A DNA stretch of 64,000 bases from positions 96,001 to 160,000 of the forward strand of contig CAVRCJ010000011.1 in assembly GCA_963719515.1 (NCBI GenBank), given 5' to 3'. This document shows positions 8,215-19,800 of this stretch, piece by piece. The notes beneath the pieces were generated by a model. That model did no database searches. It was not told the origin of the DNA and was given only the letters and a program-made list of their open reading frames with translations. Both the position numbers and the translations under genes were made by a program. Position 1 is the stretch's first letter. Every line of letters begins with the position of its first letter. The stretch comes from an uncultured cyanobacterium. Lineage in GTDB: Bacteria; Cyanobacteriota; Cyanobacteriia; CAKZMO01.

Positions 8215-10368
8215 ATGGCGACGTTTTTACTTGAGGTTGGGACGGAAGAACTTCCCGCTGAGTTCCTAGACACGGCGTTTTCCCAGTGGCGATCGCAGAT
8301 TCCAGCCAGCCTCGCCGAGGCGTTTTTGACCCCCGAGGCGATTCACATCTACGGCACCCCGAGGCGGCTGGTGCTGCTGCTGGAAGGCCTGCCCGAGCAG
8401 CAGCCCGACCGCACAGAAGAGGTCAAAGGTCCCCCGGCCCAGGCGGCCTTTAAGAACGGCAAGCCCACCAAGGCGGCAGAGGGGTTTGCCCGCTCTCGGG
8501 GGGCAACGGTGGAGGACTTAGAGGTGCGTGACACGGGCAAAGGCTCGTTTGTATTCGTCATTCAGCGGATTGCGGGCCGCAGCGCGGCGGCGGTGCTCGC
8601 CGAGCAAATTCCCGACTGGGTGCTGGGGCTTGAAGGCAAGCGGTTTATGCGCTGGGGGGACGGCGACCTGCGCTTTCCGCGCCCCATCCGCTGGCTCATG
8701 GCCCTGCTGGACGACCAGCTCTTGCCCATCACCCTAGAAAACGGCTCCGAGGTCATCCACAGCGATCGCCTGTCCTACGGCCACCGGGTGCTCTCCCCCG
8801 GCGCGATTGAGATTGCCCAGGCCGAGGGCTACTTGAGCGCCATGCGGGCCGCCCGCATTGAAGTGGACCCCGAGCGACGGCGAGAGGCGATCGCCGAGCA
8901 GACCCAGCGGGCCGCCAAGTCTGTGGGGGGAGTAGCCCGCATGTCGCCGGAGCTGCTGCAGGAGGTGGTGAATCTGGTGGAAACCCCCACCGCCGTTGTG
9001 GGCACCTTTGCCCCCGAATTCTTGGAGGTTCCCTCAGAGGTGAGCATTACGGAGATGGAGAGCCACCAGCGCTACTTCCCGGTGCTGGCGTCTGAGTCCT
9101 CGGGTACCCTGCTGCCCTACTTCATCACTATTTCCAACGGCGACCCCGACAAGGCCAAAATCATCGCGGCGGGCAACGAGCGCGTGATTCGCGCCCGGCT
9201 CTCCGACGGCAAGTTCTTTTTTGACCTCGATCGCAAGCAGACCTTGGAGGCCTACTTACCCCAGCTGGAAACGGTCACCTTCCAGCAGGACATTGGCTCA
9301 GTGCGCCAAAAAGCCGCGCGTATTGAGGCGATCGCGGAGCTGATTGGGGGCCAGCTGGGCATCGCCGAACCGGAGAAAACCCAGGTGCAGCGGGGGGCGC
9401 TGCTGTGCAAAGCGGACCTCGTGACCCAAATGGTGGGGGAGTTTCCGGAGCTGCAGGGGGTAATGGGGCAAAAGTACGCCCTGGCCAGCGGCGAGGACGA
9501 GGCCGTGGCCACCGCCATCATGGAGCATTACCTGCCTCGGGGCGCGGACGACGCCATGCCCCAAACCCTAGTGGGCCAGGTGGTGGGTCTGGCCGACCGC
9601 CTCGATACCCTGGTGAGCATCTTTAGCCTGGGCCGGGTGCCCTCGGGCTCCTCCGACCCCTTTGCTCTGCGGCGCGCCGCCAACGCCGTCGTCAGCATTA
9701 TCTGGCAGGGAAACCTGGCGCTCAACCTGCGGCAGCTGATGGCAGAGGCCATCACCAGCTTCACCCAGCACAACGCGATCAAAGCGGGCGATGCCGCCTC
9801 CCTGCAGGGACAGCTCGAAGCCTTCTTTCAGCAGCGGCTGCAGACCCTGCTGGCCGAGATGGGCATCGACTACGACCTGATCAACGCCGTGCTGGGAGAA
9901 GGCGATCCCGAGTACGCCGCCCGCGCCCTCAGCGACCTGCTCGACGGACGCGATCGCGCCCGGTTCCTGCAGCAGATTCGCCAAGATGGCATTCTGGAGA
10001 GCATCTACGAAACGGTGAACCGCGCCTCCCGGCTGGCGGCCCAGTCGGACTTTGACACCGCCCCGCTGGACCCCGCCCAGGAAATCGACAAGGCCCTGTT
10101 TCAGCAGGATTCGGAGCAGGCTTTCTACGACGCCCTGGTGACCCTAATGCCAAAGACTCAGCAGGCCCAGGCCAGCCGAGACTACGGGGCGCTGGTGGCA
10201 GCCTTGGGGGAAATTGCCCCCGTGGTGAGCCAGTTTTTCGACGGGCCGGACAGCGTTTTGGTGATGGCCGACGACCCGGCGGTGCGGCGCAACCGGCTCA
10301 CCCTGCTGGGGCTGCTGCGCAACCATGCGCGGGTGCTGGCGGATTTTGGGGCGATCGTCAAGCAGTGA
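8215..10368 (+). CDS. glyS: Glycine--tRNA ligase beta subunit
   Basis: [39 protein letters not shown]-terminal NRL.LL. Confidence 0.97.
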
Positions 10369-10669
10369 GCGTTGGCCGTTGTGTAGCAAATCTTACGGCT
10401 GGCGGCAAATTCTGACGTCGGTATTACAGTGCTAAAAGTCATAGGGTTTCCCGTTTGGTTTAATACTGGGCAATTCCCTAAGCGCTTAAATGCCTTGCTT
10501 ATCGGTGCCGCCGATTACTGGTTCAGAATTTGTGCAAGTAATAACTTATGTAAAACTAAAGCTTTATTTATGTCTTTAGACAGTCTTAAAAGCTTACTAT
10601 GCTTCGCTATATTTTAGACATGGAAGAAGTCGCGACTGTTCATCAAAATACCTTACTTTGGAGACAAGC

Positions 10670-11050: not shown

Positions 11051-12406
11051 ATGAAGCTTAACGTGAGCAATCGAGAACGGTGTAAAGCTCTAAAGCAAGC
11101 GCTGAGCACTTTTGTGCTAGATGCCGAAGGAGACTTGGCGATCGCTTTAGAGACATACAGTTCCCGACGTTTGAGGCAGTGGTCAGACGCAAAGCTTCAA
11201 GGCATTGATTGTTCTGGTTTAGCAATTGATATGTTTATCACCGAAGGTCAAGTTAATGGCCAATCGGTGCTAGATATTTTTGCAGCGAACCAGCCCAGAC
11301 TATCTGAGACAGATCAAGCGCTTGTTAAGGGCTGGAAGGACACTTTCAACGGTCTGTTTGTCGTTCTTCAGGTCACCCCGCAGGGCTATGAGCTCATGAA
11401 CTGGCTGACTGAAAAGCAGTATTGGGTGCAGTCTAGCGGCCTACAATCAGAGGAACGGCTGGCTCGATTGTCTCCTGGTGAGATCGTTGCCGTTCGGCTG
11501 TCGCCCGTTCCAGAAGCTGATTGGATATTTTCAGGGCCTTTGCTGCTGTTAGGAAAGCTAGGAAAACCCAAGCTAGCTGTTGCTATTGGTAACTTTAAAA
11601 ACTGGTTCCCCAACTATCTTTATGGAGATGCCCCTGACCTTTTGGAGGAGGCCTGGAAATCGGTAAAGCACTACCACGATGAGTTTGTACAGTTCTTTGA
11701 AGCAGAGCGGGTTACGCTTTCAGGGTATGAGCTCAACAAAAAGCTGAACGCGTATCAAGAATTTGCTACTCAGCGCCAGCTAGAACGCACAGGGATAGAC
11801 AGCTCTAAGTCTTTGAAAGACCTGATGGACCAGGCTGGTGTGTCACAGGAAGAGGTTTCCGAATCGGTTGAATCCCTCGGGGCGGAGGGCCGCCAGGTGA
11901 AGCGCCTACTAGAGAGTTCAAAATCGGTGAAGATGGTGATGCCGCCTCTCAAGCTTCCAGATGACCTGCGCAAGGCGGAGGCGGTTACGGTGTTTGTCCA
12001 TCCGCGCTGGGGACAGATGATGTTGAAAGACTACGGGCAGATGACTCAGCTGCTTGAAGCCGCAGACGAGGCATCGCTAGCCAAGCTAGATCTGTTCGTC
12101 CATCGGTACCTCAAAAACGAGGCCGCGACTGCCTACGTTTGGCAATCCTTGGCTGAGGAGAATCCGGAGGCGCTAGAAGCGGCGCTCAGCCGGGTTCTTG
12201 ACCGCCCAGTTTCCCTTCAAGATGACCTAGAGAAGATTTTACTCGAGTTTGGAAAGTCCCTTGAACCGAAGCTTCCAGAGGTTGCCAGTGTCCCTGTTCA
12301 CCTGCACAACCTGTTTCAAGAGGCGCTGCAGGAGGTGAACGGTAGTTCATCGAAGAAAAAGGCAAAAGGCAAGCGGAAGCAAAAAGCTGGTTTTGCGGCT
12401 CTTTAG
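11051..12406 (+). CDS. Hypothetical protein (451 aa, Lys-rich tail)
   Basis: Long open frame with normal composition; KKKAKGKRKQKAGF C-terminus; family not recognised. Confidence 0.8.
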   Translation: MKLNVSNRERCKALKQALSTFVLDAEGDLAIALETYSSRRLRQWSDAKLQGIDCSGLAIDMFITEGQVNGQSVLDIFAANQPRLSETDQALVKGWKDTFNGLFVVLQVTPQGYELMNWLTEKQYWVQSSGLQSEERLARLSPGEIVAVRLSPVPEADWIFSGPLLLLGKLGKPKLAVAIGNFKNWFPNYLYGDAPDLLEEAWKSVKHYHDEFVQFFEAERVTLSGYELNKKLNAYQEFATQRQLERTGIDSSKSLKDLMDQAGVSQEEVSESVESLGAEGRQVKRLLESSKSVKMVMPPLKLPDDLRKAEAVTVFVHPRWGQMMLKDYGQMTQLLEAADEASLAKLDLFVHRYLKNEAATAYVWQSLAEENPEALEAALSRVLDRPVSLQDDLEKILLEFGKSLEPKLPEVASVPVHLHNLFQEALQEVNGSSSKKKAKGKRKQKAGFAAL

Positions 12407-12770: not shown

Positions 12771-13039
12771 CGAAGCCTACCAACCCACCTATCTTGACTC
12801 CCGCCTCGATCGCGAAGCCGAAGCGCCAACGGCAGACTGCAGCCCAAACTCAGCAGGCGGCCAAATCGGTGGGAGGGGTGGCCCGCACGGCACCGGAGCT
12901 GCTGCAGGAGGTGGTCAACCTGACAGAAACCACCACCGCCGTTGTGGGCACCTTCGTCCCTGACGTTAAGCAGTGAGCGCTGCTCGTTGTGTAGAAAATC
13001 TTACGGCTGGTGGCAAATTCTGACGTCGGTATTACAGTG
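12771..13039 (+). pseudogene. Mosaic relic: WD40-gene 3' end fragment + internal glyS fragment + glyS 3' end/3' UTR
   Basis: 12771-12834 aligns to 19725-19791; ~12841-12963 aligns to glyS ~8895-9018; 12964-13039 matches 10356-10431 (6 mismatches in 76 nt). Confidence 0.85.
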
Positions 13040-13198
13040 TTAACAGATATAGCAAAGGTCCTGATGCATTAGGACCTTTGCGCGTCTGGTTGCCTAGGCG
13101 ATGTCTAGCTTTAAGCCGAAAGCGTTGTCTTAAGCAACCCGGCCAGCGCAACCAATCGCCCAGCGCCCCAAGCAAGCTGCCCAAACCACCACCCCGCG

Positions 13199-13865
13199 AT
13201 GTGCCCCCAGACGATTTTGATTCTGTCGGCAAATCCTAAAGGCACCCCGGCCCTGCGCCTCGACGAGGAGGTGCGGGAAATCAAGGCGGGCCTAGAGCGA
13301 TCGCCCCACCGCGATTTGTTTCGCATTGAGCAGGCGGAGGCGGTGACGCCGCGAGACGTGCAGCGGGCGATGCTGAAGCATGAGCCGCAGAATTGTACAT
13401 TTTTGCGGCCACGGCAAGGGGGAAGACGGCATCTTGATGGAGGGCGTCGGCGGTCAGCCGCAGCTGGTGAGCGAGCGGGCGCTGTCGAAGCTGTTTGAGC
13501 TGTTTGCCGACGAGATTGACTGCGTGCTGCTCAACGCCTGCTACTCGGCGGTGCAGGCGCGGGGCATCGCTCAGCATATTGGCTCGGTGGTGGGGATGAG
13601 CAAGGCCATCGGCGATCGCGCGGCAATTGAGTATGCGGTGAGCTTTTACGATGCGCTGGGGGGTGGGCGAGATTTTGAGTTTGCCCATCGGCTGGGGTGC
13701 AATGCGATCGAGCTGATGGGGATTGACGAGGCGCTGGTGCCGGTGTTGGTTCAGAAGGGTGATGGCCTCCTTTCGTCTTCTGCGGCTGATACCGCTGGCG
13801 AAAGGTTGGGCGAAGGCTGCTCAGTCCCCCAAAATTGGGGGACTTTGACATTGGAAGCCCTCTAA
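13199..13865 (+). pseudogene. CHAT (caspase-like) protease domain, frameshifted by one extra base at ~13391
   Basis: ILILSANPKGT..LRLDEEVREI...HEPQ / IVHFCGHG...VLLNACYS; His and Cys dyad retained; CAG-A-ATT frameshift. Confidence 0.85.
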
Positions 13866-13914
13866 ATCCCCCAATCGACGACCTTCGGTCACGCTCCGCG
13901 AAGGGAGACTTTGA
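13821..13914. repeat. Cyanobacterial palindromic repeat doublet (TCCCCCAA..GGG(G/A)GACTTTGA) between CHAT and TIR
   Basis: Two related units; the second contains an extra ~25-nt segment; supplies the in-frame TAA at 13863. Confidence 0.65.
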
Positions 13915-13928
13915 CGTAGCTGACCCGC

Positions 13929-15527
13929 TTGAGCGGCCAGACTGCCCATGTCTTCGTCAGCTACAAGCGCGGCGTGGAGCCAGATGAGCGGGTGGCCAAG
14001 GCGATTTACGAGGCGCTCTCGCCTCAGCATGAGGTGTTCATTGACCAGACGATGCCGGTGGGCACCCGGTGGATGGAGCGCATCGATGCGGAGATTCAGC
14101 GATCGCACTTTATGGTGGTGCTGCTGTCAGCGCATTCGGTGCAGAGCGAGATGGTGATCCTGGAGCTGGAGAAGGCGCAGCACAACGCGAGCCATGCGGG
14201 ACGACCTAAGCTGCTGCCGGTGCGGCTGGGGTATCGGGAGCCGTTTCAGTATCCGCTGAGCGAGTATTTGAACCCGATTAACTGGGCTTTTTGGCAAGAC
14301 GAGGGGGATACGGCGCGGCTGGTGCAGGAGCTGGAGGGGGCGATCGCGGGGCAGCCGCTCACCATTGAGACCCAGGCGGCGAAAGACGAGCTGGTGACGC
14401 CGGAGCCGGACGCGGAGCCTATTGAGGCCCCGCCGCCCCCCATCGCTCAGCCCCATCAAGCTAGAGCCCATCAAGCTAGGGCCCATCAAGCTAGGGGCCA
14501 TCAAGCCAAAGCCCCAGAAAAGCTGGAGCTGCCGGAAGGCACCATGACCGTGGAGTCGCAGTTTTACGTGGCGCGGCAGGCAGACCGCATTGCCCTAGAG
14601 ACCATTGGCGAACGGGGGGTGACGCTGACGATTAAAGGGGCGCGGCAGGTGGGCAAAAGCTCGCTGTTGATTCGGGTGATGGCGGCGGCGCGGCAGGCGG
14701 GAAAGCGGGTGGCGTTTCTGGATTTCCAGATGTTTGACAAGACCACGCTGCACAGCGCCGACGCGTTTTTCTATCAGTTTTGCCTGTGGCTGAGCGATGC
14801 GCTGGAGGTGGAGGACGAGGTGGACGCCTACTGGCAGCGCCCGGAGGGCAACCGCCAGCGCTGCACCCGCTATATGCGACGGCACATTTTGCCGAAGCTG
14901 ACCGGGTCGCTGGTGCTGGCCATGGATGAGGTGGAGAGCATTTTTGATACGCCGTTTCGCACGGATTTCTTTGGCATGCTGCGCAGCTGGCACAACCAGC
15001 GGGCCAGTAGCGACTCCTGGCGCAAGATCGACCTGGCGCTGGTGACCTCTACCGAACCGTATCAGCTGATTGACGACCTGAACCAGTCGCCCTTCAACGT
15101 GGGGGAGGTGCTGGATTTGGAGGATTTCTCTATGGCCCAGGTGCTGGAGCTAAACCAGCGCCACGGCGAGACGCTGACGCCCGCTCAGGCGCAGCAGCTG
15201 ATGGGGCTGGTGAACGGCCATCCGTATTTGGTGCGCAAGGCGCTGTATCTGGTAGCGCGGGGGCGGATGACGGCGGCAGAGCTGTTTGACCAGGCGGCGC
15301 AGGAGCGCGGCCCGTTTGGCGATCACCTACGCTATCACCTGTTTCGCGTTTACGATAAGCCGGAGCTGGTGGCGGCGCTGCTAAAAATCATTCGCCAGCG
15401 CAGCTGCCCGGATGAGCGGCTGTTTTTCCGGCTGCGGGGGGCGGGGCTGGTGCGGCGCGACGGCCAGGCTATTGCGCCTCGGTGTGAGCTGTATGGGATT
15501 TATTTTCAGGAGCATTTGCGTGGGTAA
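13929..15527 (+). CDS. TIR + AAA_35 (AAA-like) P-loop NTPase; probably the C-terminal part of a CHAT-TIR-AAA_35 gene
   Basis: VFVSYKR...FIDQ...VVLLS..S..SEMVILEL TIR; Walker A GARQVGKSS; Walker B LAMDE; SPFNVG; GHPYL; same frame as the CHAT C-half. Confidence 0.85.
   Translation: MSGQTAHVFVSYKRGVEPDERVAKAIYEALSPQHEVFIDQTMPVGTRWMERIDAEIQRSHFMVVLLSAHSVQSEMVILELEKAQHNASHAGRPKLLPVRLGYREPFQYPLSEYLNPINWAFWQDEGDTARLVQELEGAIAGQPLTIETQAAKDELVTPEPDAEPIEAPPPPIAQPHQARAHQARAHQARGHQAKAPEKLELPEGTMTVESQFYVARQADRIALETIGERGVTLTIKGARQVGKSSLLIRVMAAARQAGKRVAFLDFQMFDKTTLHSADAFFYQFCLWLSDALEVEDEVDAYWQRPEGNRQRCTRYMRRHILPKLTGSLVLAMDEVESIFDTPFRTDFFGMLRSWHNQRASSDSWRKIDLALVTSTEPYQLIDDLNQSPFNVGEVLDLEDFSMAQVLELNQRHGETLTPAQAQQLMGLVNGHPYLVRKALYLVARGRMTAAELFDQAAQERGPFGDHLRYHLFRVYDKPELVAALLKIIRQRSCPDERLFFRLRGAGLVRRDGQAIAPRCELYGIYFQEHLRG
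14452..14511 (+). repeat. 15-bp in-frame tandem repeat (AHQAR-like, 4 copies) in the TIR-AAA linker
   Basis: CCCATCAAGCTAG(A/G)G units. Confidence 0.85.
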
Positions 15528-18500
15528 GCCAAACCGCAATATCTACACCCCTGGAGGCACGGTGCAGGCAGGGCAGGGCATCTATTTAGAGCGGCAGGCC
15601 GACGCGCAGCTGCTGCAGCTTTGCCAGGAGGGGGTGTTTGCCTATGTGCTGACTTCGCGGCAGATGGGCAAGTCGAGCCTGATGGTGCATACGGCGCGGC
15701 GGCTGGCGACCGAAGGGGTGGTGACCCTAATTGTGGACCTGACGGATGTGGGGGTGCAGGATGTGACGGCGGATGCCTGGTATCGGGGCTTTTTGCTGGA
15801 GATTGAGGCGAAGCTGGAGTCGCAGGAGCGGTTTTTGGATACCGATGTGTATGCCTGGTGGGAGGCGCACCACTATTTGACGGTGTCGCAAAAGCTGTCG
15901 CGGTTTTTCCGCCATGTGCTGCTGGAGGAGGTGGAGGGGCCGGTGGTGGTGTTTGTGGATGAGATTGACACGACCTTGAGCCTGGATTTTACGGACGACT
16001 TTTTTATTACGATTCGCTCGTTTTATACGGCGAGGGCGCAGGATGCGGCGTTTCAGCGGCTGTCGTTTGTGCTGATTGGGGTAGCGACGCCGGGGGATTT
16101 GATTGTGGACTCGAAGCGAACGCCGTTTAATATTGGCCAGCGGGTGGAGCTGACGGATTTTGGCTATGGGGAGGCGCTGCCGCTGGCGGCGGGGCTAGCG
16201 CTGGGGGGGACGGCTCTGGCTGGAGACGGGCCTGGAGGGACAAGCGCAGCGGGGCGGGAGCGGGAGGTTTTTGAGCGGGTGCTGCACTGGACGGGGGGGC
16301 ATCCGTATTTGACGCAGCGGTTGTGCATTGAGCTGGCGCGGTATGGAGGTGGGGGTGAGCCGACTGGTCTTACCCCCCTTAGTCCCCCCTTAGAAGGTGT
16401 GATAGAGCCTACACAAGCTGGTTTTACCCCCTCTAACTCCCCCTTAGAAGGTGTGATAGAGCCTACACAAGCTGGTTTTACCCCCTCTAACTCCCCCTTG
16501 CTAAGGGGGAGAACTGGAGGCTTCCGCGCAGCGCGTCCGCAGGATGCAGGGGAGTTAGAGGGGGTGAACCCGAACGCTGAACTCTCGGCCAAAACCGTTG
16601 ACCAAGTTGTCAGCCGCACCTTCTTTGGTGAGAAGAGCGAGCAGGACAACAATCTGCAGTTTGTGCGGGATATGCTGACTACTCGATCGCCTAACGTGCT
16701 GGAGGGGCTGGCGATTTACCGGGCGGTTTGGCGGGGGCGGCGGCCCGTGGTGGATGAGGAGCAGTCGATTGTTAAGTCGCATTTGAAGCTGTCGGGGGGG
16801 GTGAAGCGGCAGGGGCAGCGGCTGGTGGTGCGCAATGAGATTTACCGGCGGGTGTTTGATGGGCGGTGGGTGCGGGAGCATTGGCCGGAGGGGGTGTGGG
16901 AGCGGCTGAGGCCGGCGATGCCGTTGATTGCGGGGCTGACGGTGGTGGCGCTGGGGATGAGCGGGCTGGCGGCCTATGCAGTGGGGCAGCGGAACCGGGC
17001 AGAGCAGCAGACGGCACTTTTAGAAGAGGCACTACTGCGGGAAGAAGAGCAGCGGGAGTTTGCCTTGAATAAGGCAGAAGAGGCCGAGGCAAATGCGAAA
17101 CAAGCCAGGCAGAACGAAGCAGAGGCGACGCGGCAATCAACGCGGGCTGAGAAAAATTTGAAAGACGCCCAACTGGCTCAGCAGCAGGCGGAAGCGGCGA
17201 AGCTGGCGGAGCAGGGGCAGCGGCAAGAGGCTGAAACACAAACGGCTATTGCGCAAGAACAAACCACAATTGCGCAGGAGCAAACCGTTTTGGCAGAGCA
17301 GCGGCTTGAGGAAGCAGATTCTGCAACGCTCTTGGCAAAGCAACGGTTGAGTGAAGCCGATGCGGCGAAGCTGCAGGCTGAACAAGAAAGCCGCATTTCG
17401 CTGGCGCGGCAGCTTGCGGCACAATCAGAATACTCGCGACGTCAGCGACTTGATCTGTTCCCTCGAAGCATCTTGCTGGCAGTCGAATCGATGAAGCGGC
17501 TGATGGACTCATCCACATCCACCGCAGACACCCACCAAGCGCTCCATAGCCTAAAAACCTTGCCCCCCAAAGCATCCCGCATTGCCCATGAGGGGGCTGT
17601 CTATGACGTGCGGTTTAGCCCCGACGGGCGCTACCTGGCAACCGGCAGTAGGGACAATACGGCGCGGGTGTGGGACGTTGCGGCAAACCAAGAGGTGGCC
17701 CGCATTGCCCATGAGGGGTGGGTCGTTGACGTGCGGTTTAGCCCCGACGGGCGCTACCTGGCAACCGGCAGTGAAGACGGTACGGCGCGGGTGTGGGACG
17801 TTGTGGCAAACCAAGAGGTGGCCCGCATTGCCCATGAGGGGTCGGTCGTTGACGTGCGCTTTAGCCCCGACGGGCGCTACCTGGCAACCGGCAGTGAAGA
17901 CGGTACGGCGCGGGTGTGGGACGTTACGGCAAACCAAGAGGTGGCCCGCATTGCCCATGAGGGGTGGGTCGTTGACGTGCGGTTTAGCCCCGACGGGCGC
18001 TACCTGGCAACCGGCAGTTTGGACAATACGGCGCGGGTGTGGGACGTTGCGGCAAACCAAGAGGTGGCCCGCATTGCCCATGAGGGGTCGGTCTATGACG
18101 TGCGGTTTAGCCCCGACGGGCGCTACCTGGCAACCGGCAGTGAAGACGGTACGGCGCGGGTGTGGGACGTTGTGGCAAACCAAGAGGTGGCCCGCATTGC
18201 CCATGAGGGGTGGGTCGTTGACGTGCGCTTTAGCCCCGACGGGCGCTACCTGGCAACCGGCAGTGAAGACGGTACGGCGCGGGTGTGGGACGTTGCGGCA
18301 AACCAAGAGGTGGCCCGCATTGCCGAGGGGTCTGTCGTTGACGTGCGGTTTAGCCCCGACGGGCGCTACCTGGCAACCGGCAGTAGGGACAATACGGCGC
18401 GGGTGTGGGACGTTGCGGCAAACCAAGAGGTGGCCCGCATTGCCCATGAGGGGTGGGTCGTTGACGTGCGGTTTAGCCCCGACGGGCGCTACCTGGCAAC

Positions 18501-19800
18501 CGGCAGTTTGGACAATACGGCGCGGGTGTGGGACGTTGCGGCAAACCAAGAGGTGGCCCGCATTGCCCATGAGGGGTCGGTCGTTGACGTGCGCTTTAGT
18601 CCCGACGGGCGCTACCTGGCAACCGGCAGTAGGGACAGCACCGCCCGGGTGTGGGACATTGCGGCAAACCCAGAAGTCGCCCGCATTGCCCATGAGGGGT
18701 ATGTCGAAGACGTGCGCTTTAGCCCTGACGGGCGCTACCTGGCAACCGGCAGTAGGGACAATACGGCGCGGGTGTGGGACGTTGCGGCAAACCAAGAGGT
18801 GGCCCGCATTGCCCATGAGGGGTGGGTCGTTGACGTGCGGTTTAGCCCCGACGGGCGCTACCTGGCAACCGGCAGTTTGGACAATACGGCGCGGGTGTGG
18901 GACGTTGCGGCAAACCAAGAGGTGGCCCGCATTGCCCATGAGGGGTCGGTCTATGACGTGCGGTTTAGCCCCGACGGGCGCTACCTGGCAACCGGCAGTA
19001 GTGACAATACGGCGCGGGTGTGGGACATCGCGGCAAACCAAGAGGTGGCCCGCATTGCCCATGAGGGGTGGGTCGTTGACGTGCGGTTTAGCCCCGACGG
19101 GCGCTACCTGGCAACCGGCAGTAGTGACAATACGGCGCGGGTGTGGGACATCGCGGCAAACCAAGAAGTCGCCCGCATTGCCCATGAGGGGTATGTCCTT
19201 GACGTGCGGTTTAGCCCCGACGGGCGCTACCTGGCAACCGGCAGTTTGGACAATACGGCGCGGGGGTGGGACGTTGCGGCAAACCAAGAGGTGGCCCGCA
19301 TTGCCCATGAGGGGTCGGTCTATGACGTGCGCTTTAGCCCTGACGGGCGCTACCTGGCAACCGGCAGTGAGGACAACACGGCGCGGGTGTGGGACGTTGC
19401 GGCAAACCAAGAGGTGGCCCGCATTGCCCATGAGGGGAATGTCCGTGACGTGCGCTTTAGCCCCGACGGGCGCTACCTGGCAACCGGCAGTTGGGACAGC
19501 ACGGCGCGGGTGTGGGACGTTGCGGCAAACCAAGAGGTGGCCCGCATTCCGCATGATGAGAGCGTAGGAAGCGTGCAGTTTCACCCCACAAAACCCTACC
19601 TGCTCACCCGCAGCGGCAACGTCGCCGAAGTCTGGATGCTCGACCCCAACGACCTGATGGCCGAAGCCTGCCGCCGCCTCACTCGCAACCTCACCCTTGA
19701 CGAATGGCGACAGTACCTCGGCGACGAACCCTACGAGGCCACCTGCCCCGACCTCCCCCGCCTCGATCGCGAAACTGAAGCCCCAACCGCAAGTCGCTGA
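15520..19800 (+). CDS. AAA_35 NTPase - TM helix - coiled coil - WD40 repeat protein
   Basis: GTG at 15520 after CAGGAG, overlapping the upstream stop; YTPGGTV, TSRQMGKSS, VFVDEID, TPFNIG, GGHPYLTQ; TM LIAGLTVVALGMSGLAAYAV; A/E/Q-rich coil; 16+1 WD40 repeats; ACRRLTRNLT..EW..Y tail. Confidence 0.92.
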   Translation: MGKPNRNIYTPGGTVQAGQGIYLERQADAQLLQLCQEGVFAYVLTSRQMGKSSLMVHTARRLATEGVVTLIVDLTDVGVQDVTADAWYRGFLLEIEAKLESQERFLDTDVYAWWEAHHYLTVSQKLSRFFRHVLLEEVEGPVVVFVDEIDTTLSLDFTDDFFITIRSFYTARAQDAAFQRLSFVLIGVATPGDLIVDSKRTPFNIGQRVELTDFGYGEALPLAAGLALGGTALAGDGPGGTSAAGREREVFERVLHWTGGHPYLTQRLCIELARYGGGGEPTGLTPLSPPLEGVIEPTQAGFTPSNSPLEGVIEPTQAGFTPSNSPLLRGRTGGFRAARPQDAGELEGVNPNAELSAKTVDQVVSRTFFGEKSEQDNNLQFVRDMLTTRSPNVLEGLAIYRAVWRGRRPVVDEEQSIVKSHLKLSGGVKRQGQRLVVRNEIYRRVFDGRWVREHWPEGVWERLRPAMPLIAGLTVVALGMSGLAAYAVGQRNRAEQQTALLEEALLREEEQREFALNKAEEAEANAKQARQNEAEATRQSTRAEKNLKDAQLAQQQAEAAKLAEQGQRQEAETQTAIAQEQTTIAQEQTVLAEQRLEEADSATLLAKQRLSEADAAKLQAEQESRISLARQLAAQSEYSRRQRLDLFPRSILLAVESMKRLMDSSTSTADTHQALHSLKTLPPKASRIAHEGAVYDVRFSPDGRYLATGSRDNTARVWDVAANQEVARIAHEGWVVDVRFSPDGRYLATGSEDGTARVWDVVANQEVARIAHEGSVVDVRFSPDGRYLATGSEDGTARVWDVTANQEVARIAHEGWVVDVRFSPDGRYLATGSLDNTARVWDVAANQEVARIAHEGSVYDVRFSPDGRYLATGSEDGTARVWDVVANQEVARIAHEGWVVDVRFSPDGRYLATGSEDGTARVWDVAANQEVARIAEGSVVDVRFSPDGRYLATGSRDNTARVWDVAANQEVARIAHEGWVVDVRFSPDGRYLATGSLDNTARVWDVAANQEVARIAHEGSVVDVRFSPDGRYLATGSRDSTARVWDIAANPEVARIAHEGYVEDVRFSPDGRYLATGSRDNTARVWDVAANQEVARIAHEGWVVDVRFSPDGRYLATGSLDNTARVWDVAANQEVARIAHEGSVYDVRFSPDGRYLATGSSDNTARVWDIAANQEVARIAHEGWVVDVRFSPDGRYLATGSSDNTARVWDIAANQEVARIAHEGYVLDVRFSPDGRYLATGSLDNTARGWDVAANQEVARIAHEGSVYDVRFSPDGRYLATGSEDNTARVWDVAANQEVARIAHEGNVRDVRFSPDGRYLATGSWDSTARVWDVAANQEVARIPHDESVGSVQFHPTKPYLLTRSGNVAEVWMLDPNDLMAEACRRLTRNLTLDEWRQYLGDEPYEATCPDLPRLDRETEAPTASR
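16371..16570. repeat. In-frame MITE-like palindromic insertion with a 54-bp tandem duplication inside the AAA_35 domain
   Basis: GGTTTTACCCCCTCTAACTCCCC / GGGGAGTTAGAGGGGGTGAACC inverted repeats; duplicated 18-aa PLEGVIEPTQAGFTPSNS. Confidence 0.8.
17581..19545 (+). repeat. Array of 16 near-identical 123-bp WD40 coding repeats (repeat 7 lacks one codon)
   Basis: IAHEGxVxDVRFSPDGRYLATGSxDxTARVWDVAANQEVAR x16, near-identical at DNA level. Confidence 0.97.

What the first reader, a model, noticed from the sequence alone, without database searches (positions are those of the whole stretch)
17581..19545. Homogenised WD40 array with variation concentrated at four codons per repeat
Seen: 16 x 123-bp repeats are almost identical even at synonymous sites, yet four positions switch among dissimilar residues: HEG[A/W/S/Y/N], V[Y/V/E/L/R]DV, GS[R/E/L/S/W] and D[N/G/S]. 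Variants recur in reshuffled combinations (WVV with E-G, L-N or S-N; SVY with E-G, S-N or E-N). Established: three of these positions correspond roughly to the top-face ligand-binding residues of WD40 propellers, and the pattern resembles fungal HET-E/D. Inference: recombination shuffles a binding-specificity code. The changes are not adenine-restricted and no reverse transcriptase is present, so this is not a DGR.
Basis: partly seen in the sequence, partly recalled or inferred. Interest (0 to 1): 0.75.

Follow-up and report, generated by a model that had tools for sequence, protein, structure and literature searches.

The report
Shuffled WD40 sensor of cyanobacterial receptor
A cyanobacterial receptor-like ATPase gene ends in 16 near-identical WD40 repeats that differ mainly at four residues predicted to face a binding partner; the repeats are likely reshuffled by recombination under diversifying selection, as in fungal self/non-self receptors, which makes this a new example of an already described kind of gene.

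Summary
The array is real: 16 repeats (15 of 123 bp, one of 120), 93% alike, varying mainly at codons 7, 9, 25 and 27. It ends a STAND ATPase (AAA_35)-transmembrane-WD40 gene coupled to an upstream TIR-STAND gene and a broken CHAT protease: the WRAP/Npun_R6612-type operon. The four codons show about five times the synonymous rate (18 changes on 10 sites against 11 on 31; p 2e-5). Pairs 7/9 and 25/27 each stay linked but recombine against each other. Three sites are the known WD40 top-face hotspots; all four match the places selected in fungal HET-E. Positions 7, 9 and 25 vary in most of 25 homogenised homologues. Related sediment strains carry new codon combinations. No reverse transcriptase or template was found. 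One predicted membrane helix (100 of 105 proteins) suggests the sensor lies outside the cytoplasm. Ligand, activity and repeat order are untested; the locus looks partly decayed. Operon, hotspot diversity and such bacterial receptors are in print, and this scan found the pattern in other genomes. New member of a known kind.

The parts
13187..13399 (+). N-terminal piece of a CHAT (caspase-like) domain; frame breaks near 13388
   Evidence: tblastn of the fused CHAT-TIR-STAND of G036 matches this piece in one frame and the rest in another; a contig of run X1 has one base fewer at 13388
13380..13865 (+). C-terminal piece of CHAT with HFxGHG and LNACYS motifs (catalytic His/Cys assignment recalled)
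   Evidence: Pfam CHAT E 1e-4, under the curated cut-off; PADLOC chat model E 2e-13
13866..13928 (+). Linker in frame with both CHAT and TIR, with two stop codons and a short dispersed repeat; likely a broken CHAT-TIR-STAND fusion
   Evidence: Three-frame translation; one 712-column alignment at 50.7% to the G036 fusion across it, and two other genomic copies of the 40-bp repeat
13929..15527 (+). TIR_2 + AAA_35 STAND ATPase (STAND-A), Walker A GARQVGKS; TTG start uncertain
   Evidence: Pfam TIR_2 E 5e-20, AAA_35 E 1e-109
15520..19800 (+). Receptor gene, 1426 aa: STAND-B, one membrane helix, Ala/Glu/Gln-rich linker, WD40 array, cap; GTG start overlaps the stop of the TIR-STAND gene
   Evidence: ORF, Pfam, alignment with homologues
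15520..16890 (+). STAND-B (AAA_35), Walker A TSRQMGKS with Thr for the first Gly; in-frame insert of short dispersed repeats at about 16330-16590
   Evidence: AAA_35 E 1e-28; Thr in 54 of 54 paired downstream STANDs; repeat copies elsewhere in genome
16927..16983 (+). Predicted single transmembrane helix
   Evidence: 19-residue hydropathy 1.86; one such segment in 100 of 105 proteins
17576..19556 (+). 16 homogenised WD40 repeats; variable codons 7, 9, 25, 27 (repeat 1: 17596-98, 17602-04, 17650-52, 17656-58); repeat 7 lacks the His codon
19543..19800 (+). Degenerate 17th blade and helical cap with two cysteines
   Evidence: Translation; three strands plus helices in model; Cys pair in the tail of 67 of 105 proteins

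Best explanation
The 16 repeats are the WD40 propeller end of a STAND ATPase gene coupled to a TIR-STAND gene, and they likely act as a fast-changing non-self sensor: recombination between repeats likely keeps the scaffold uniform and reshuffles half-repeat modules, while diversifying selection likely maintains different residues at four positions predicted to lie on the binding face. Shown: architecture, gene coupling, the excess of amino-acid changes at the four codons, linkage within and incompatibility between the two codon pairs, the same pattern across the family, new combinations in related strains. Inferred: a single membrane helix puts the propellers outside the cytoplasm (periplasm or thylakoid lumen) and STAND-B inside; ligand binding would cluster STAND-B, recruit STAND-A and switch on TIR (NAD cleavage or signalling) and, in intact alleles, the CHAT protease, stopping growth or killing the cell. 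Mechanism of change: RecA-type unequal exchange and gene conversion plus point mutation, with no dedicated mutator. This allele may be partly decayed.
For: Selection: 18 minimum non-synonymous changes on 10 sites against 11 synonymous on 30.7 sites, binomial p 2e-5, post-hoc-corrected p 5e-4; the other 37 codons are under purifying selection, 5 changes on 82 sites. Same four sites fixed in advance: ratio above 1 in 4 of 5 distinct homogenised arrays from 106 loci, p<0.05 in 3 of 5. Recombination: codon pairs 7-9 and 25-27 are each compatible, all four cross-pairs incompatible; repeats 4, 8 and 11 are identical, and difference does not rise steadily with distance. Family: among 25 of 101 homologues with at least 75% blade identity, positions 9, 7, 25, 6 and 27 are among the four most variable in 23, 20, 20, 18 and 8. 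P0079 and P0092, with an identical membrane linker and tail, have 14 blades each with a shared block shifted by two. Strains: contigs of runs X1 and X2 carry Y-V-V and Y-V-N, absent from the window. Structure: pLDDT 95, best Foldseek hit WRAP 2YMU. Pairing: two STANDs in 63 of 80 related loci, TIR in 41 of 80. Topology: one helix in 100 of 105; more K/R on the STAND side in 63 of 102 against 15; extracellular solute-binding domain fused behind the WD40 in 2 of 2 homologues tested. Mobility: G004 holds the module at 96-97% identity while glyS is 78%.
Against: No ligand, activity or expression data. Positions 7, 9 and 25 are also the most variable in 60 diverged arrays, so concentration there is partly plain tolerance. 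One of five control arrays shows no excess (ratio 0.8). The position-permutation recombination test gave p 0.066. Position 27 is among the top four in only 8 of 25 homologues. This protein's own helix has two Arg on each side, so its orientation rests on the family. No curated defence model passes for the pair: PADLOC and NCBIfam give weak TIR or CHAT hits only. CHAT was hit in 0 of 80 related loci. 17 blades is unusual (crude mode 13-14), and one blade lacks its His. No close orthologue with a complete array was found, so order polymorphism at this locus was not seen directly.
Confidence: 0.7

Rival explanations
1. Recent one-off amplification of one blade followed by drift at structurally tolerant loop positions and decay (amplification-differentiation-decay cycle of Pereira and Lupas), without ongoing shuffling or selection for diversity.
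For: Same positions vary most in old arrays too. The locus has a frameshift, linker stops, a lost His and 17 blades. Other AAA_35 pairs of this genome show broken frames against 3 of 112 ordinary genes. PMC9218822 describes many disrupted WRAP propellers.
Against: Relaxed constraint cannot give five times the synonymous rate. Two- and three-base codon alleles recur in crossed combinations. The other 37 codons are under purifying selection.
Confidence: 0.12
2. The same evolutionary process, but the receptor senses an environmental or cell-envelope signal or mediates kin recognition between filaments rather than defence against phage or other invaders.
For: Paralogous AAA_35 pairs in this genome carry other partners (TPR-like repeats; a pair with N-terminal extensions that look like DNA-binding domains and one next to GAF-like genes, judged by eye). 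Some homologues fuse a solute-binding domain. No curated defence hit.
Against: TIR and CHAT partners, horizontal transfer and diversifying selection fit conflict better than a fixed signal.
Confidence: 0.12
3. The crossed combinations and the count of 16 are assembly or polishing chimeras of a shorter or differently ordered array.
For: No reads span the array. Exact internal repeats up to 225 bp. PMC12222747 reports that short-read assemblies fail on such arrays. The 3-base loss and V31G could be errors.
Against: The array is internal to a 499-kb contig and in frame throughout; background frame splits are 3 of 112. Independent metagenome contigs hold the same blade, two of them without a mismatch over about 60 bases. 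The same pattern occurs on a single 6.1-Mb contig (L020). Chimerism could alter order, not create the alleles.
Confidence: 0.05
4. A diversity-generating retroelement mutates these codons.
For: First and second codon positions vary more than third at codons 9 and 27; DGRs target STAND sensors in multicellular bacteria (PMC10907252).
Against: No PF00078 match in the genome (0 of 1, 100% complete by markers, 21 contigs). No template-like copy outside the array; the only other hit is 67 bp at 78%. 18 of 22 consensus adenines are invariant.
Confidence: 0.01

Closest known systems
WRAP / Npun_R6612 operon of Nostoc punctiforme (PDB 2YMU; PMC9218822 passages and sections 12 and 18; PMC6805158 passages; Dunin-Horkawicz 2014 seen only as cited there)
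   Same: STAND ATPase with a recently homogenised WD40 array, coupled to an upstream TIR-STAND gene that may carry a caspase domain; frequent disruption; proposed innate immunity. 2YMU is the best PDB hit by sequence (E 6e-102) and by fold; homologue P0026 matches 2YMU at E 4e-275.
   Different: Different blade lineage (41 residues, HEG-x-V-x-DV), 16+1 blades against 14. WRAP varies mostly at one position (W/R at site 9); here four sites vary. Those papers read the arrays as single amplifications; the passages I saw do not report crossed modules, per-codon selection or a membrane helix.
Podospora HNWD receptors HET-E/HET-D (PMC1805685, PMC12222747, PMC13449251; passages, plus section 12 of the last)
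   Same: High internal conservation, four hypervariable codons at the d-a loop and b-c turn, repeat shuffling, STAND ATPase plus death-type effector.
   Different: NACHT not AAA_35; effector fused in one cytosolic chain; many paralogues exchange repeats there, whereas this blade occurs once in this genome; ligand HET-C known there, none here.
Highly repetitive prokaryotic WD40 proteins (Hu et al. 2017, PMC5587647, passages)
   Same: Internal identity above 0.7, low dS, high diversity at the predicted hotspot sites.
   Different: A statistical class pooled over proteins; no per-locus selection or recombination test in the passages seen.
Avs / bacterial STAND phage sensors (PMC13581612, passages) and DGR-diversified STAND sensors (PMC10907252, passages)
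   Same: STAND plus C-terminal sensor plus TIR or protease effectors; WD40 sensors and predicted periplasmic sensors both occur.
   Different: Tested Avs sensors are mostly TPR-like and bind conserved phage folds; DGR systems use reverse transcription on C-type lectin domains.

Membership tests
WRAP/Npun_R6612-type two-gene STAND operon | STAND ATPase with C-terminal highly repetitive WD40 propeller | tested here: met
   AAA_35 plus 16 WD40; 93% repeat identity; 2YMU best hit
WRAP/Npun_R6612-type two-gene STAND operon | Coupled upstream STAND gene with N-terminal TIR | tested here: met
   TIR_2-AAA_35 at 13929-15527 overlapping the next start; co-transcription itself not measured
WRAP/Npun_R6612-type two-gene STAND operon | Optional N-terminal caspase-like domain on the TIR protein | tested here: inconclusive
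   CHAT present and collinear with an intact fusion, but broken in this assembly
WRAP/Npun_R6612-type two-gene STAND operon | STAND domain of the same clade as Npun_R6612 | tested here: inconclusive
   Full-length Npun_R6612 not fetched; homologues of this gene carry WRAP-like blades (P0026 to 2YMU E 4e-275)
Fungal HNWD (HET-E/D) | HET effector and NACHT domain in one chain | tested here: not met
   N-terminal 686 residues give AAA_35 only
Fungal HNWD (HET-E/D) | Four codons under diversifying selection in d-a loop and b-c turn | tested here: met
   matched by structural place, HET-E sequence itself not aligned
Fungal HNWD (HET-E/D) | Repeat number and order polymorphism between strains | tested here: inconclusive
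   New combinations in short contigs; shifted block in P0079/P0092; no second full allele of this locus
Fungal HNWD (HET-E/D) | Allele-specific recognition that triggers cell death | not testable with these tools
   needs experiments
Diversity-generating retroelement | Reverse transcriptase and template repeat | tested here: not met
Avs / curated anti-phage STAND systems | Match to curated models or shown phage protection | tested here: not met
   no Avs model hit in PADLOC 2.0 or NCBIfam; protection not testable here

The most novel reading that the evidence does not exclude
This family is a membrane-spanning bacterial NLR-like receptor: a recombination-shuffled WD40 code displayed outside the cytoplasm reads foreign or non-kin surface molecules and signals through a pair of STAND ATPases to TIR and protease effectors, a HET-E-like allorecognition or surveillance system for filamentous bacteria, with whole sensor ends also being swapped as cassettes.
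Probability: 0.3. Interest if true: 0.7.

Novelty: new member of a known kind. Interest (0 to 1): 0.3.

Why it matters
It is a clean bacterial case of the fungal HET-E way of making receptor diversity, at the same four structural positions, without reverse transcription. The operon type, the hotspot diversity and the existence of such bacterial receptors are published, so the locus adds a worked example: per-codon selection, crossed modules, population variants and evidence for a membrane helix. The open and testable question is family-wide: what these likely extracytoplasmic propellers bind and whether the four-residue code sets specificity. This allele, with a broken CHAT part and a damaged blade, is not the best one to test.

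Tried and rejected
Single-sequence AlphaFold model of 782 residues: pLDDT 79 but no Foldseek match under E 0.001; wrong fold, discarded for the alignment-based model. Model coordinates could not be read, so face assignment rests on strand positions and the published rule. Complex prediction of STAND-A with STAND-B: no answer, score 0.00 in two runs, no controls; not used. No RNA holder listed. Search for a full second allele: 40 relatives, 16 family genomes, 80 genome loci, metagenome scan with 6 distant loci; none had this blade above about 77% identity, and the G004 contig ends before the array. Apparent Met at codon 25: rejected, because the per-contig mismatch counts fit Arg or Ser codons with one position left out of the table. 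A fourth difference in the X3 Tyr-bearing contig is unlisted, so that contig was not counted; the Y-V-N contig has depth 3.9. A joint skipping 747 bases in X1 is in repeat phase and reads as another blade variant, not a deletion. A cap-motif pattern matched nothing and was replaced. One search used a wrong frame for one query and was redone. Paper searches listed no study of per-codon selection or membrane topology in AAA_35-WD40 pairs; Dunin-Horkawicz 2014 and Leipe 2004 were not read, and no supplements were opened, so either may already cover these points.
Full report
Observation. Tandem Repeats Finder gives an array at 17576-19556, period 123, 16.1 copies. Cut in frame, the 16 units are 93.1% alike on average. 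Fifteen are 123 bp; unit 7 lacks the codon for the conserved His. Amino-acid variation is concentrated at codon 7 (A, W, S, Y, N), 9 (Y, V, E, L, R), 25 (R, E, L, S, W) and 27 (N, G, S). Smaller variation occurs at 34 and 35, with single changes at 31 and 38. Units 4, 8 and 11 are identical; there are 13 four-site types. A degenerate 17th blade and a cap with two cysteines follow.

Gene context. The array ends a 1426-residue gene (15520-19800): AAA_35 STAND ATPase, one hydrophobic segment, a long Ala/Glu/Gln-rich linker, the WD40 array and the cap. Its start overlaps the stop of a TIR_2-AAA_35 gene (13929-15527). Upstream lies a CHAT protease domain. The intact CHAT-TIR-STAND fusion of G036 aligns across this whole stretch at 51%. 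Here it is broken by a frameshift near 13388 and by two stops in the linker, which holds a short dispersed repeat. A contig of run X1 lacks the extra base. The genome is a cyanobacterium; a same-genus record is titled Elainellaceae. Two STAND matches occur in 63 of 80 related loci and TIR in 41 of 80, across many phyla; CHAT was hit in none of the 80. In 54 pairs from 81 loci, the upstream STAND has Gly at the start of Walker A in 48, and the downstream one has Thr in all 54 while keeping GKS. Whether the downstream STAND is active cannot be told from this.

Selection. A tree-free minimum count gives 18 non-synonymous changes on 10 sites at the four codons, 5 on 82 sites elsewhere, and 11 synonymous changes on 30.7 sites. 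The four codons thus run at about five times the synonymous rate (p 2e-5; 5e-4 when corrected for choosing the top four), and the rest at about one fifth of it. With the same four sites fixed in advance, 5 distinct homogenised arrays among 106 loci gave ratios 5.1, 3.6, 2.0, 1.8 and 0.8, three of them with p under 0.05. Caveat: these positions are also the most variable in 60 diverged arrays, so location alone proves little; the excess over synonymous change is the evidence.

Recombination. Codons 7 and 9 are mutually compatible, as are 25 and 27, but all four cross-pairs fail the compatibility test. That is what exchange between half-repeat modules would leave, and alleles that differ by two or three bases make recurrent mutation unlikely. 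A permutation test on single positions was weaker (p 0.066). Difference between units does not rise steadily with distance. In homologues P0079 and P0092, which share an identical membrane linker and tail, a block of blades is shifted by two places with 14 kept; one has a blade in three identical copies, which could also be an assembly effect. Contigs from four sediment runs of one study hold the same blade; X1 has Y-V-V and X2 has Y-V-N at codons 7-9, neither found in the window. They are too short to give order.

Structure. An alignment-based model of the last ten blades has pLDDT 95, with strands at 8-13, 19-24, 28-33 and 38-44 of each unit; its best PDB match is WRAP, 2YMU. Position 7 precedes strand a, 9 is at its start, and 25 and 27 are in the b-c turn. 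By the rule in PMC3419727 (passages), 7, 9 and 25 are hotspots R1-2, R1 and D-1. PMC1805685 (passages) finds selection in HET-E at the same two pairs of places.

Family. Of the best 120 of 3584 homologues, 101 had six or more scorable blades and 25 had at least 75% blade identity. In those 25, positions 9, 7, 25, 6 and 27 were among the four most variable in 23, 20, 20, 18 and 8. The pattern is therefore a family trait, with position 6 often varying in place of 27.

Topology. One hydrophobic segment lies between STAND and WD40 in 100 of 105 proteins scored. Basic residues are more numerous on the STAND side in 63 of 102 and on the other side in 15, and a Cys pair lies in the tail of 67 of 105. 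Both homologues tested carry an extracellular solute-binding domain behind the WD40; source names suggest this for 5 of 120. I infer that the propellers face the periplasm or thylakoid lumen. This protein's own flanks are tied at two Arg each. I had noted the helix before, but an earlier scan note (e1-8313099) prompted the outside-facing reading.

Turnover. G004 holds the two STAND genes at 96-97% identity while glyS is 78%, which points to recent transfer between species. In G002 an orphan 3' end of this gene type (86% identity) sits directly behind a different WD40 gene. Other AAA_35 pairs in this genome show broken frames, whereas 3 of 112 ordinary genes tested do (112 of 169 queried passed the filters). 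Decay is therefore more likely than general assembly error, though single errors remain possible.

Not a DGR. No reverse transcriptase match in the genome and no template copy of the blade.

Mechanism. Most likely (0.7) a non-self sensor whose scaffold is homogenised and whose binding face is diversified by recombination and selection. Binding would cluster the membrane STAND, recruit the TIR-STAND and trigger TIR and protease effectors. Everything from ligand binding onward is inference from STAND biology.

What is known. PMC9218822 (passages, sections 12 and 18) describes this operon for Npun_R6612, including the optional caspase domain, the excess of non-synonymous changes and frequent disruption. 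PMC5587647 (passages) notes diversity at hotspot sites in highly repetitive WD40 proteins. PMC13449251 (passages, section 12) concludes that hypervariable homogenised NLRs also occur in bacteria. Earlier notes of this scan report the pattern in other cyanobacteria and protists. The locus meets the tested features of the WRAP-type operon, works like HET-E without being an HNWD, and is not a DGR. Verdict: new member of a known kind, interest 0.3.

Noticed in passing
window 12845-13052: Remnant copies of two glyS pieces (8899-9017 at 82%, 10356-10444 at 89%) just upstream of CHAT; G002 and G003 also hold second copies of the glyS 3' end. The glyS 3' end may be an integration site; the 451-residue ORF at 11051-12406 between the copies has no Pfam match.
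   Followed up: partly
L017:316-544 and 1570-1633 (G002:C157): Two orphan 3' ends of this receptor type, one right behind a WRAP-like WD40 gene, one after small genes that look like a nucleotidyltransferase/HEPN toxin-antitoxin pair (judged by eye, not tested). Suggests serial replacement of sensor ends.
   Followed up: partly
L016:7604-9044 (G009:C6): Stand-alone WD40 gene of the same blade lineage (about 74% DNA identity) with an N-terminal hydrophobic segment and no STAND; by eye it varies at the same positions.
   Followed up: no
window 15515-15530; L002; run X1: The junction between the two STAND genes differs among close relatives: overlapping GTG here, a 12-base insert giving an ATG in X1, a longer repeat-like insert in G004.
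   Followed up: partly
window 16330-16590 and 14452-14514: In-frame inserts of short dispersed or tandem repeats inside both STAND genes; parts of the first have about 20 other copies in the genome; one 15-bp unit of the second is missing in X2.
   Followed up: partly
G000 C10:327854-334869, C3:52757-55614, C3:99275-103334: Three more AAA_35 gene pairs: TIR-STAND plus STAND with TPR-like repeats, and two with other N-terminal extensions, one next to GAF-like genes (labels by eye); several frames are broken.
   Followed up: partly
P0009, P0010, P0012, P0015, P0103: Homologues with an ABC-type solute-binding domain fused after the WD40 array (Pfam SBP_bac_5 confirmed for P0009 and P0103).
   Followed up: partly
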